A stretch of DNA of 64,000 nucleotides from Candidatus Latescibacterota bacterium (GCA_965222075.1 OZ244937.1:3808001-3872000); one strand, 5' to 3'. Shown: positions 22,025-32,881, numbered from the stretch's first letter. The notes: generated by a model not told the origin, from the letters alone. Made by a program: numbers and translations.

Positions 22025-22370
22025 CACCCCTTACCTCCTTCGCCTTTCTCCCCCTTTCCTCTCAGGAAAGGGGGCCGGGGGGATAGGTCACTCATACCGC
22101 TGGCTGACGGAACAGTTCGGGTTTGCGGAACAGCCGTGGGAATGACCCCTCCCCCGGCCCCTCCCCGAAACGGGGAGGGGAGAGGGTGCGCCTCATCCTG
22201 TACCCGCCACCTCCACCTTTGCTGCGGGGTACCCGCCACCTCCACCTTTGCTGCGGGGTTGAAGGGGCTTTTCCGCGCGGTTCCGTCCAGCCTGGTGGGC
22301 AACCACGAGGGTTGCCCCTACAAATGCAACGGCGTGGACAAAGGGGATAGGTCACTCATACCGCCCCTAC
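22025..22370 (-). repeat. Composite repeat: inverted copy of the 30.4-32.3 kb B-linker-A unit, 29-bp tandem duplication, GTAG-type REP
   Basis: GGATAGGTCACTCATACCGC..GCGGAACAGCCGTGG..TGACCCCTCCCCCGGCCCCTCCCCG is the reverse complement of the array junction; TACCCGCCACCTCCACCTTTGCTGCGGGG occurs twice (22201-22258); GGGCAACCACGAGGGTTGCCCCTAC. Confidence 0.85.
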
Positions 22371-22412
22371 CCCCGTCACGCGCCCGCTTTTCCAGGCAAC
22401 AATTTCTCTAAC

Positions 22413-30266: not shown

Positions 30267-30407
30267 GCCCGCTCGTCCTTCCTTTGGCATTAGGGCACCA
30301 GGTCAAAATAGCACAGATGTAATATAGAGAGAAACAGAGACAAAAATCAAGCAAAAAAACAAAGCCCCGAAAAGCCCACTCCCCTCGTTACTCCCCCCTT
30401 GATATGC

Positions 30408-32265
30408 GTGACCTATCCCCCCGGCCCCCTTTCCTGAGAAGAAAGGGGGAGAAAGGCGCAGGAAGTGATGGTTGTAGGATGAGTGACCTATCCCCCCGGC
30501 CCCCTTTCCTGAGAGGAAAGGGGGAGAAAGGCGCAGAAGGTGATGGGTGTAGGATGAGGAGAAGAAATATTGTTATTGGGCAGAAAATGCATCCGGATAA
30601 GGTGAAGATATAAGACAGAATCTTGAAGGTGTTCTGAGTCGTATCGTGACCCAACTGAAGAAACGCTCTACCTTCCAAACCTCTTAGGAACACCCTCTCC
30701 CCTCCCCGTTTCGGGGAGGGGCCGGGGGAGGGGTCACTACCACGGCTGTTCCGCAAGACCCAACCGTTCTGACTGCCAGCGGTATGAGTGACCTATCCCC
30801 CCGGCCCCCTTTCCTGAGAAGAAAGGGGGAGAAAGGCGCAGAAGGCGACGGGGAGTTTGCAGAAAATGCATCCGGATAAGGTGAAGATATAAGACAGAAT
30901 CTTGAAGGTGTTCTGAGTCGTATCGTGACCCAACTGAAGAAACGCTCTACCTTCCAAACCTCTTAGGAACACCCTCTCCCCTCCCCGCCTCGGGGAGGGG
31001 CCGGGGGAGGGGTCACTACCACGGCTGTTCCGCAAGACCCAACTGTTCTGACTGCCAGCGGTATGAGTGACCTATCCCCCCGGCCCCCTTTCCTGAGAAG
31101 AAAGGGGGAGAAAGGCGCAGGAAGTGATGGTTGTAGGATGAGGAGAAGAAATATTGTTATTGGGCAGAAAATGCATCCGGATAAGGTGAAGATATAAGAC
31201 AGAATCTTGAAGGTGTTCTGAGTCGTATCGTGGCCCAACTGAAGAAACGCTCTACCTTCCAAACCTCTTAGGAACACCCTCTCCCCTCCCCGTTTCCCGG
31301 GGGAGGGGCCGGGGGAGGGGTCACTACCACGGCTGTTCCGCAAGCCCCAACCGTTCTGACTGCCAGCGGTATGAGTGACCTATCCCCCCGGCCCCCTTTC
31401 CTGAGAAGAAAGGGGGAGAAAGGCGCAGGAAGTGATGGTTGTAGGATGAGTGACCTATCCCCCCGGCCCCCTTTCCTGAGAGGAAAGGGGGAGAAAGGCG
31501 CAGAAGGTGATGGTTGTAGGATGAGGAGAAAAGATATTGTTATTGGACAGAAAATGCATTGAAGGTGTTCTGAGTCGTATCGTGACCCAACTGAAGAAAC
31601 GCTCTACCTTCCAACCCTCTTAGGAACACCCTCTCCCCTCCCCGTCTCGGGGAGGGGCCGGGGGAGGGGTCACTACCACGGCTGTTCCGCAAGACCCAAC
31701 TGTTCTGACTGCCAGCGGTATGAGTGACCTATCCCCCCGGCCCCCTTTCCTGAGAGGAAAGGGGGAGCAAGGCGCAGAGGTGATGGGTGTAGGATGGGGA
31801 GAAAGGCAGAAAATGCATCCGGATAAGGTGAAGATATAAGACAGAATCTTGAGGTGTTCTGAGTCGTATCGTGACCCAACTGAAGAAACGCTCTACCTTC
31901 CAAACCTCTTAGGAACACCCTCTCCCCTCCCCGCCTCGGGGAGGGGCCGGGGGAGGGGTCACTACCACGGCTGTTCCGCAAGACCCAACCGTTCTGACTG
32001 CCAGCGGACTGGTGACCTATCCCCCCGGCCCCCTTTCCTGAGAAGAAAGGGGGAGAAAGGCGCAGAAGGCGACGGGGAGTTTGCAGAAAGTGGATCTGGA
32101 TAAGGTGAAGATATAAGACAGAATCTTGAAGGTGTTCTAAGTCGACCCATCCGGAGAGAGTATAACTGAAGAAACGCTCTACCTTCCAAACCTCTTAGGA
32201 ACACCCTCTCCCCTCCCCGCCTCGGGGAGGGGCCGGGGGAGGGGTCACTACCACGGCTGTTCCGC
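30408..32265 (+). mobile_element. Tandem array of six MITE/BIME-like units (hairpin A - DUF559 remnant - inverted hairpin B - linker)
   Basis: A (GTGACCTATCCCCCCGGCCCCCTTTCCTGAGARGAAAGGGGGAG) starts at 30408, 30483, 30788, 31067, 31375, 31450, 31724 and 32012. B (..GGGGAGGGGCCGGGGGAGGGGTCAC) ends at 30737, 31016, 31324, 31673, 31962 and 32248. Confidence 0.85.
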
Positions 32266-32428: not shown

Positions 32429-32881
32429 ATGTTGAAAAGCGAAACGGATGAGCATCGGGAATCGGTCTGGAGTGTGAACGACAGGGAATGGTTTGCCTAT
32501 TTGTCGGTCGCACTATTTGTTCTCGGATTGGTTTTGCGGTATCGGGAAAAGGATGCATTTCAAACGGCATTCGACCTCATAAAAGATGTGGGAACCATTG
32601 GCATCTTTGCTGTTACAGGTGCTTTTTTCACACTGGAGGTGATAGACGTTATGTTAGGAATTTATGAGAGGATTAAGAAAACGCAACATGAAATGGGACG
32701 CAAGGCAGGACGTCAGGAAGGACGTCAGGAAGGTCAGGAAGGACGTCAGGAAGGACGTCAGGAAGGACGTCAGGAACAAATTGATAAAATCAGGAAACGG
32801 ATTGAGGCTGAAAGAGAAAAAGGAAATCTGAAAGACATCGAGTTGAGGAAATTTGAAAAACTTCTGGACGACGATGAGTAA
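32429..32881 (+). CDS. Hypothetical two-TM membrane protein with (GRQE)n tail
   Basis: Two hydrophobic segments; GGACGTCAGGAA tandem repeat at about 32708-32775; lower GC than flanks. Confidence 0.65.
   Translation: MLKSETDEHRESVWSVNDREWFAYLSVALFVLGLVLRYREKDAFQTAFDLIKDVGTIGIFAVTGAFFTLEVIDVMLGIYERIKKTQHEMGRKAGRQEGRQEGQEGRQEGRQEGRQEQIDKIRKRIEAEREKGNLKDIELRKFEKLLDDDE

What the first reader, a model, noticed from the sequence alone, without database searches (positions are those of the whole stretch)
30408..32265. Tandem array of hairpin-flanked, internally deleted DUF559 (Vsr-like) endonuclease cassettes: candidate endonuclease-associated REP/MITE system
Seen: six units, spaced 279, 308, 349, 289 and 286 bp between B ends. 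Each has hairpin A and an inverted relative B; both read GTGACC..CCCCCGGCCCC then a 10-11 bp stem when read inward. Between them, in unit 1, ATG 30554 gives MRRRNIVIGQKMHPDKVK, and 30604-30687 in another frame gives EDIRQNLEGVLSRIVTQLKKRSTFQTS-stop. Knowledge (my recall of the family): DUF559 endonucleases begin ...NIVIGQK..P.K..RAKELR and end ...NE(D/E)(I/V)RQ.L..VL.RI. Inference: the catalytic middle was deleted at a TGAAG microhomology, leaving a non-autonomous element with both terminal hairpins, which was then amplified. This parallels REP/BIME and RAYT, but with a PD-(D/E)XK/Vsr nuclease in place of an HUH transposase. I do not know of this pairing being characterised as a mobile system.
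Basis: partly seen in the sequence, partly recalled or inferred. Interest (0 to 1): 0.85.

Follow-up and report, generated by a model that had tools for sequence, protein, structure and literature searches.

The report
Tandem remnants of triplex-repeat nuclease cassette
Six broken, head-to-tail copies of a small DNA-cutting gene framed by repeats built to fold into a three-stranded helix sit here, intact parents lie nearby in the same genome, and the same gene-plus-repeat pairing across many bacteria points to a testable partner enzyme for a long-unexplained repeat family.

Summary
The array is real: six units spaced 279/308/349/289/286 bp. Each is an internally deleted copy of a 564-bp unit whose intact form (A, a 130-aa DUF559 gene, B) occurs three times 64-79 kb away. 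Five units share the 259-bp TGAAG deletion, found only here, so this is a local expansion, not a dispersed MITE family. The linker is captured host DNA: the ends of a hydrolase gene and an ABC-permease gene.

A and B are not REPs. They fit the intrastrand-triplex class of BoxC/PIT/TM repeats, for which Holder 2015 found no mobility gene. Such motifs flank 62 of 67 close DUF559 relatives (controls 15 of 751), and also E. coli ycjD and the gene of crystallised NGO0050. Motif type tracks the protein tree, and gene and motif co-occur across genomes.

Best reading (about 0.55): a REP/RAYT-like system whose Vsr-like nuclease nicks at the repeats while host repair copies them. No activity is shown. 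Many genomes keep the motif without the gene, and one remnant moved inside another MITE. My searches found no paper on the pairing; this scan noted it before in at least 8 other findings.

The parts
30408..32265 (+). Tandem array: six deleted A-(DUF559 remnant)-B-linker units plus two 75-bp A-only subunits
   Evidence: units 91-92% identical to the intact 564-bp unit at G000:C1:3759281-3759844
30408..30482 (+). A-only 75-bp subunit (A plus spacer up to the DUF559 start, re-joined to A at ATGAG); second copy at 31375-31449
30483..30526 (+). Motif A of unit 1: hairpin plus mirror third arm, 10 possible purine-motif triplets on the G-rich strand, CCG loop. Other copies start at 30408, 30788, 31067, 31375, 31450, 31724, 32012
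   Evidence: geometry read from the sequence
30554..30607 (+). 5' remnant of the DUF559 gene (residues 1-18)
30603..30607 (+). TGAAG microhomology junction of the 259-bp deletion that removes the catalytic core; the same junction lies in units 2, 3, 5 and 6
30604..30687 (+). 3' remnant of the DUF559 gene (residues 104-130 and stop)
30699..30736 (-). Motif B of unit 1, inverted to A: 9 of 9 mirror triplets, CCG loop, 2 mismatches from the published TMECO pattern. Other copies at 30978-31015, 31283-31323, 31635-31672, 31924-31961, 32210-32247
30737..30787 (+). Linker: reverse complement of the last codons of an alpha/beta-hydrolase gene joined at GCGGTA to the last codons of an ABC-permease gene; both genes lie about 78 kb away
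30390..30402 (+). Half hairpin resembling another DUF559-associated repeat type, at the left edge of the array
   Evidence: the same type flanks DUF559 domains in L005-L007
22050..22188 (-). Second site in the window: B and A with the same linker and no nuclease remnant, just upstream of a GFO/IDH/MocA oxidoreductase gene; an A stub lies near 22354

Best explanation
The parent is a compact cassette: triplex motif A, a 130-aa Vsr-like (DUF559/YcjD-type) nuclease gene, and inverted triplex motif B. SHOWN: it sits between the convergent stop codons of an ABC-permease gene and a hydrolase gene. A tandem duplication through a GCGGTA overlap in the two flanks made a 564-bp unit that carries both gene tails. 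That unit, intact or with several different internal deletions, now lies at neighbouring permease ends. One deleted copy reached the window site, where the sister genome already has an A, and expanded there head to tail with mosaic exchange. INFERRED: the nuclease is the cognate enzyme of these repeats, as RAYT is for REPs. It would recognise the folded motif and nick near its RACC foot. A Vsr-type hydrolase cannot rejoin DNA (established knowledge), so host recombination or template switching would copy the motif, the A-B doublet or the whole cassette. That 'nick and copy' route would explain the missing target duplications, the co-copied host flanks, the short-overlap joints and the arrival at a site that already held a motif. 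Odds: about 0.95 for the history of the array, about 0.55 for the nuclease as the driver.
For: Three intact genes flanked by A and B, one in tandem with another. Sister genome G001 has a gene-less B-27 bp-A doublet at the orthologous permease/hydrolase site, and its intact gene lies at another site with both gene tails attached. Motif within about 200 nt of the gene in 62 of 67 close relatives, on both sides in 43 of 67, against 15 of 751 control windows. Distant relatives: 24 of 40 cyanobacterial loci and 8 of 8 other loci, against 11 of 657 controls; most misses carry their own shorter-stem variant. E. coli ycjD and the gene of PDB 3HRL are flanked too. Motif type clusters on the protein tree, 34 changes against 59.9 shuffled. 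Co-occurrence (at least 3 motif hits): 13 of 14 gene-bearing against 21 of 111 other genomes of the phylum, and 12 of 61 against 1 of 59 cyanobacteria. K-12 has 23 motifs and ycjD; IHE3034 has 1 motif and no ycjD. G004 holds 14 dispersed 111-118-bp doublets with sharp ends and no target duplication. E31, D60, E71, D73, H77 and D84 are kept in 79-80 of 80 relatives, dN is below dS, and the closest folds are 3HRL and homing endonuclease I-Bth0305I. No motif lies near either Y1 transposase gene of the genome.
Against: No binding, nicking or movement is shown. 21 genomes of the phylum keep at least 3 motifs without a gene of this clade, G004 with 42 and no DUF559 match at all; cyanobacterium G104 has 40 motifs and no DUF559 match at E <= 1e-22. 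G231 has the gene and no hit to the pattern. A decayed cassette at two loci moved inside a TIR-bounded element with 4-bp target duplications. Only 2 of 6 deletion junctions show 4 or more bp of overlap (one read by eye). None of 4 filled/empty site comparisons gave a precise insertion junction. A DUF559 protein of Caulobacter is proposed to be a T:G repair enzyme (PMC12907096). The genome statistics are not independent of kinship or genome size, and the tree is a quick tree on 125 columns.
Confidence: 0.55

Rival explanations
1. Passive instability. The triplex motifs stall replication and cause slippage, deletion and duplication on their own, and they travel inside other mobile elements. The DUF559 gene is a T:G-mismatch repair nickase or a passenger that was caught between two motifs early and has been carried with them since.
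For: Holder 2015 links the motifs to local variability and proposes slippage. The window array holds no intact gene. Motifs persist in many genomes without the gene. Hitch-hiking in a TIR element is shown. Vsr-like function is proposed for a DUF559 protein, and a second-group Vsr cuts T:G in any context.
Against: It does not readily explain clade-specific motif types around clade-specific proteins, sharp-ended dispersed doublets, or whole cassettes in frame inside unrelated long ORFs. No cytosine methyltransferase gene lies beside the three intact copies.
Confidence: 0.27
2. Domesticated processor. The nuclease does recognise the motif, but as a host factor that resolves the folded structure or acts on motif-bearing transcripts at gene ends. 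Repeat spread is a by-product and the gene is not selfish.
For: 11 of 24 motif sites examined in G000 lie within a few bases of the stop codon of an ORF of 100 or more codons (no control). ycjD has one place per genome in nearly all of the 3378 of 5426 E. coli genomes that hold it. Relatives are rare on plasmids (26 of 72,556 records) and phages (2 of 50,697), as reported for RAYTs.
Against: Here the gene itself is triplicated and repeatedly destroyed by deletion. It is present or absent at the orthologous site in sister genomes, patchy (14 of 125 genomes), low in GC (47% against 59%), and inserted in frame in other genes.
Confidence: 0.13
3. The array is an assembly artefact.
For: No contig spans it.
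Against: The units differ by private substitutions and distinct indels. Both edges are seen in runs of separate studies. Similar tandem units exist at other loci and in G001.
Confidence: 0.03
4. The units are integron cassettes and A/B are attC sites; one common A variant begins with an RYYYAAC-like word (core consensus recalled).
For: Motifs often follow stop codons, and cassettes occur in tandem.
Against: A in this genome lacks the AAC, the G004 doublets do not end in GTTRRRY, and the neighbours are ordinary genes with no integrase among the ORFs examined.
Confidence: 0.02

Closest known systems
BoxC / PIT / TMECO intrastrand triplex motifs (Holder et al. 2015, PMC4666352; abstract, introduction, three results parts and first discussion part read; supplement not searchable)
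   Same: Three-block geometry (hairpin plus mirror arm), 3-nt CCG second loop as in TMECO type B, two types paired as inverted doublets, intergenic, patchy copy number, unstable surroundings. The E. coli motif lies 170 nt from ycjD, with a degenerate copy at the gene's end.
   Different: Different consensus: no exact TMECO match in G000, B is 2 mismatches away, and A is not matched within 5. The paper reports no transposase or integrase near the motifs; its main text has 0 hits for ycjD, endonuclease or Vsr.
REP/REPIN-RAYT (TnpA-REP) systems (bioRxiv 10.1101/2021.07.10.451892 and PMC3733652, passages read)
   Same: A small nuclease gene flanked by inverted short repeats; gene-less doublets of about 115 bp with a variable spacer; repeat type tracks the protein clade; ends overlap stop codons; rare on plasmids.
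   Different: The enzyme is DUF559 (PD-(D/E)XK, Vsr-like), not a Y1 HUH transposase, so there is no covalent strand transfer (established knowledge). The ends are triplex motifs without a GTAG or CGTC tag. The gene itself duplicates, moves with flanks and enters ORFs, whereas RAYTs are described as immobile.
Vsr / VSP repair endonucleases, including Caulobacter VsrA and Neisseria second-group Vsr (PMC12907096, PMC6116569, PMC3424549, passages read)
   Same: Same structural clade (Vsr, DUF559, 3HRL, 3R3P) and a conserved E-x-D-G-x-x-H active-site region.
   Different: No adjacent cytosine methyltransferase gene; framed by repeats; multi-copy. T:G activity was not tested here, and I could not tell whether NGO0050 is V.NgoAXIII (PMC2916375 not held).
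EDxHD homing endonucleases (I-Bth0305I; PMC3239194, passages read)
   Same: Second-best sequence-profile and fold match (E 1.2e-4; TM 0.60). Filled and empty alleles exist, and flanks are co-copied as in homing.
   Different: No NUMOD/HTH DNA-binding domain, no intron or intein, and many unrelated sites rather than one allele.
MITEs of DDE insertion sequences
   Same: Internally deleted derivatives keep both ends.
   Different: The ends are imperfect inverted motifs, and there is no target duplication in 14 doublets beyond a 2-bp match in 2 of them. The window form expanded in tandem instead of dispersing.

Membership tests
DUF559 (PF04480) / YcjD-type nuclease | Pfam match above cut-off in the intact parent | tested here: met
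   121 bits against a cut-off of 20.6; 3HRL E 7e-21; below the equivalog cut-off of PRK09767 (87.6 against 218)
DUF559 (PF04480) / YcjD-type nuclease | Catalytic core present in the window units | tested here: not met
   Residues about 19-103 are deleted in all six units
BoxC/PIT/TM intrastrand triplex motifs | Hairpin plus mirror third arm joined by a 3-nt loop | tested here: met
   A 10 of 10 and B 9 of 9 triplets read from the sequence; 325 of 375 allowed triplets in 75 variants against 229 +/- 9 shuffled (variants are related, and the anchor biases the count)
BoxC/PIT/TM intrastrand triplex motifs | Exact TMECO consensus | tested here: not met
   0 exact matches in G000; B 2 mismatches away; A not within 5
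BoxC/PIT/TM intrastrand triplex motifs | Triplex folding in vitro (CD/NMR) | not testable with these tools
   Only the hairpins were folded, z -2.4 to -3.3
REP-RAYT / REPIN | Y1 HUH transposase (PF01797) flanked by the repeats | tested here: not met
   The flanked gene is PF04480; the two PF01797 genes of G000 are over 20 kb from any motif
REP-RAYT / REPIN | Nuclease gene between inverted repeats, plus dispersed gene-less doublets with a variable spacer | tested here: met
REP-RAYT / REPIN | GTAG or CGTC terminal tag | tested here: not met
   Doublet ends read RACC...GGTY
REP-RAYT / REPIN | The enzyme binds and cleaves the single-stranded repeat | not testable with these tools
   Needs biochemistry
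MITE (DDE type) | Terminal inverted repeats with target-site duplication | tested here: not met
   No duplication of 3 bp or more in 14 of 14 doublets; the array is bounded by partial host tails
MITE (DDE type) | Dispersed copies of the same deleted form | tested here: not met
   All 5 TGAAG junctions of the genome lie in this array
Vsr (VSP repair) | Gene beside a cytosine methyltransferase gene | tested here: not met
   The neighbours are ABC-permease, hydrolase and other genes; unlinked Vsr-like genes exist
Vsr (VSP repair) | Nicks T:G mismatches | not testable with these tools
   Needs biochemistry
EDxHD homing endonuclease | N-terminal DNA-binding region and intron/intein host | tested here: not met
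   130-aa single domain, free-standing

The most novel reading that the evidence does not exclude
DUF559/YcjD proteins are structure-specific nickases that read an intrastrand DNA triplex, and they drive a class of selfish element of its own. It spreads with no transposase chemistry, by nick-triggered host copying, and gives solo motifs, doublets, full cassettes, in-frame insertions and tandem arrays with captured flanks. E. coli BoxC would be its non-autonomous offspring and ycjD its engine.
Probability: 0.35. Interest if true: 0.92.

Novelty: new variant of a known kind. Interest (0 to 1): 0.75.

Why it matters
BoxC/PIT/TM repeats have been known since the 1990s with no function or means of spread, and the most systematic study I read found no mobility gene beside them. 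A cognate nuclease makes the question testable in E. coli K-12, which has 23 motifs and one ycjD. It would give a role to a widespread domain of unknown function and could be a natural enzyme for intrastrand triplex DNA. This genome adds an unusually complete series: intact parents, five independent deletions, solo motifs, a gene-less allele in a sister genome and traceable captured flanks. That series limits how the movement can work.

Tried and rejected
Rfam on the parent loci gave only weak hairpin matches far below gathering scores. The short-peptide tblastn was swamped by chance hits beyond the true remnants. Global alignments of A copies followed by unrelated DNA are meaningless and were ignored. 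The automated microhomology measure was disturbed by substitutions; only TGAAG is clean, and the other junctions were read by eye. The careful tree did not finish, so the quick tree was used; its labels come from hand-made patterns, and 15 of 141 rows stayed unlabelled. An Enterobacteriaceae-wide gene/motif test could not be run, so only three E. coli records were compared, and the 55989 motif count (29) comes from the paper. Four filled/empty site comparisons gave no precise junction. A T:G wobble where A pairs with B, as a Vsr-type substrate, holds for the G000 and G004 types but not for the cyanobacterial type (read by eye), so it was dropped as a general mechanism. The attC reading was rejected. 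No family was found for ORF 32429-32881. Literature: 10 searches found no paper on the pairing (DUF559+palindrom; DUF559+transpos+hairpin; boxC+ycjD; boxC+palindromic+repeat+E. coli; intrastrand triplex+nuclease+bacteria+mobile; PF04480+repeat; very short patch repair+REP+endonuclease; RAYT+REPIN+endonuclease; DUF559+mobile genetic element; V.NgoAXIII+Vsr). Most hits were seen only as listings. Subscription papers, including the 1990s BoxC and Hoyne/Maher papers, were not available. The Holder supplement, which lists flanking genes and may name ycjD, could not be searched.

Full report
OBSERVATION. The array is as described. Six B motifs end at 30736, 31015, 31323, 31672, 31961 and 32247 (spacings 279, 308, 349, 289, 286), and eight A motifs start at 30408, 30483, 30788, 31067, 31375, 31450, 31724 and 32012. 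The two peptides translate as stated. It lies between a bifunctional-nuclease-domain gene and a 150-aa ORF of no known family, followed by an FGE-sulfatase-family gene. Contigs from 4 runs of 4 studies enter A from unique DNA, and those of 3 runs leave B into unique DNA; none of the listed pieces spans the array.

THE PARENT. The genome (G000, one 5.36-Mb contig; window = C1:3808001-3872000) has three intact DUF559 genes at C1:3759382-3759774, 3759946-3760338 and 3774066-3774458, plus a remnant. Each is framed by A and an inverted B, in a 564-bp unit. The window units are 91-92% identical to it. Five lack reference bases 120-378 (259 bp, joined at TGAAG) and unit 4 lacks 290 bp; four other deletions (209, 231, 251, 262 bp) occur in the parent cluster. 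The TGAAG junction occurs 5 times in the genome, all in the window, and all six units share substitutions seen in no other copy. So one founder arrived and expanded locally. The 130-aa protein scores 121 bits on PF04480 and matches PDB 3HRL (E 7e-21). Its model (pLDDT 85) is closest to 3HRL and to homing endonuclease I-Bth0305I, and more distant from Vsr. E31, D60, E71, D73, H77 and D84 are kept in 79-80 of 80 relatives (E31, D60, H77 and D84 lay in search patterns, E71 and D73 did not). dN/dS is 0.043/0.128 to the sister genome and 0.23/2.7 to L035. The closest records are titled Ca. Latescibacterota.

CAPTURED FLANKS. A overlaps the stop codons of four ABC-permease genes, and B overlaps the stop of a convergent hydrolase gene. 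The linker between B and the next A is the reversed hydrolase tail joined at GCGGTA to a permease tail. The hydrolase end is real host sequence: orthologs in G001 and G004 end the same way and are followed by B or a B stub. At that site G001 has only a gene-less B-27 bp-A doublet, while its intact gene lies elsewhere with both tails attached. At the ortholog of the window site G001 has one A and a partial A, with no array. Window units 2 and 6 also carry a short flank from the terminal A copies of the permease cluster.

WHAT A AND B ARE. Each is a hairpin (z -2.4 to -3.3) plus a third arm that mirrors the stem. On the G-rich strand A allows 10 purine-motif triplets and B 9, both with a CCG loop (read). 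Across 75 variants from 81 loci, 325 of 375 variable positions form allowed triplets against 229 +/- 9 after shuffling, and mirror identity is 0.79 against 0.50 direct (the variants are related). This is the class of BoxC/PIT/TMECO. Holder et al. (PMC4666352) show TMECO folds as a triplex in vitro, pairs type A with type B in inverted doublets and marks unstable loci. They report no transposase or integrase nearby. The consensus differs from ours: 0 exact matches in G000, and B is 2 mismatches away. G000 has 55 such motifs against 0, 0 and 1 in shuffles.

PAIRING WITH THE NUCLEASE. Of 142 confirmed relatives, 80 loci were returned. Among the 67 with full flanks, 62 have a motif within about 200 nt and 43 have one on both sides; 15 of 751 control windows do. 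They come from Latescibacterota, Chloroflexota, Cyanobacteriota and other phyla. With a looser finder, 24 of 40 more distant cyanobacterial loci (my pick of about 100 places listed) and 8 of 8 loci from plasmid and phage records have one, against 11 of 657 controls. Most cyanobacterial misses form a clade with its own shorter-stem variant. E. coli ycjD ends in a degenerate motif with a full one 170 nt on. The N. gonorrhoeae gene matching 3HRL is flanked on both sides. Motif type clusters on the protein tree (34 changes against 59.9; quick tree, kin not independent).

CO-OCCURRENCE. Counts of genomes with at least 3 pattern hits were tallied by hand. In the own phylum, 13 of 14 genomes with the gene against 21 of 111 without (Fisher 7e-8). 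In cyanobacteria, 12 of 61 against 1 of 59 (p 0.002). Both p values are overstated by kinship. ycjD is in 3378 of 5426 E. coli genomes. K-12 has 23 motifs and the gene, IHE3034 has 1 motif and no gene, and 55989 has the gene and 29 motifs by the paper. In G034 the gene sits in a cluster of about 11 motifs, and the genome has 233 pattern hits. G004 has 14 dispersed doublets of 111-118 bp among 20 regions fetched, with variable spacers, ends RACC...GGTY and no target duplication.

AGAINST. No activity is shown. Motifs persist without the gene in 21 genomes of the phylum, including G004, where PF04480 found nothing, and in G104; G231 has the gene without pattern hits. A decayed cassette at C1:246888-247285 and 3046048-3046446 lies inside 14-bp terminal inverted repeats with 4-bp target duplications, so it moved as cargo of another element. 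Solo A copies with permease tails sit in mosaics of other repeats. Four site comparisons showed motifs present, eroded or absent among G000, G001 and G004, but no clean junction. A Caulobacter DUF559 protein causes DNA damage in vivo and is read as a T:G repair enzyme (PMC12907096).

MECHANISM. The history of the array is shown (about 0.95): cassette between two stops, duplication with both tails, deletion, transfer to a site that already held an A, tandem expansion. The driver is inferred (about 0.55). The nuclease would recognise the folded motif and nick it. A hydrolytic Vsr-type enzyme cannot rejoin strands (established knowledge), so host repair would do the copying. This fits the missing target duplications and the co-copied flanks. 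Rivals: passive triplex instability with a repair or passenger gene (0.27), a domesticated motif-processing enzyme (0.13), assembly artefact (0.03), attC cassettes (0.02).

COMPARISON AND NOVELTY. It works like REP/REPIN-RAYT in layout but fails membership: no Y1 HUH enzyme, no GTAG or CGTC tag, and neither PF01797 gene of the genome is near a motif. It is not a DDE MITE, a linked Vsr or an intron homing endonuclease. Repeat class and protein family are each known; ten searches found no paper that pairs them, with the limits given under Tried and rejected. I reached the BoxC reading before the look-up (note). Searches then showed that this scan had noted the pairing in at least 8 findings on other genomes, and the parent cluster of this genome in one more; these are unchecked AI notes and not support. 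Verdict: a real feature, a new variant of the nuclease-plus-small-repeat kind, with an untested and possibly new mechanism. Interest 0.75.

Noticed in passing
G000:C1:246888-247285 and 3046048-3046446 (L219, L220): A 400-bp element with 14-bp terminal inverted repeats and 4-bp target duplications carries a decayed motif-DUF559-motif cassette; two copies, 98.5% identical. The ends recall IS1380-type elements (recalled, not tested).
   Followed up: partly
L005, L006, L018, L020, L173, L174, L176, L183, L185, L190, L194: Whole motif-DUF559-motif cassettes lie in frame inside long ORFs that look like restriction-modification subunits or methylases (read by eye, not scanned), and the motifs translate into Pro/Gly-rich linkers.
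   Followed up: partly
window 32429-32881: 150-aa ORF with two hydrophobic stretches and a 12-bp tandem repeat (32703-32776) encoding RQEG units. No family match; conserved in G001 with a different repeat count.
   Followed up: partly
window 22050-22400 and G000:C1:1711000-1715500: Other dispersed repeat families (about 140 bp, dozens of copies, and a 29-bp tandem at 22200-22259) form mosaics with the A and B motifs.
   Followed up: no
G000:C1:3769582-3769883, 3769269-3769581, 3773611-3773965: Three different deletions of the nuclease gene share nearly the same left breakpoint (reference bases 189-193): either a fragile site or successive deletions from one founder.
   Followed up: no
L156 (G034:C1:4674000-4675800): A DUF559 gene inside about 11 motifs, several with a 30-nt insert of another palindrome in the loop; this genome has 233 pattern hits, the most of the phylum sample.
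   Followed up: no
L242 (G004:C1:6186613-6187074): Where G000 has a solo A at a stop codon and G001 has nothing, G004 has a 460-bp insert bounded by short tandem repeats of another type, so this site has been hit by unrelated elements.
   Followed up: no
G168, G104: 72 and 40 motif hits without a nuclease match at the thresholds used; another DUF559 clade or recent loss was not checked.
   Followed up: no
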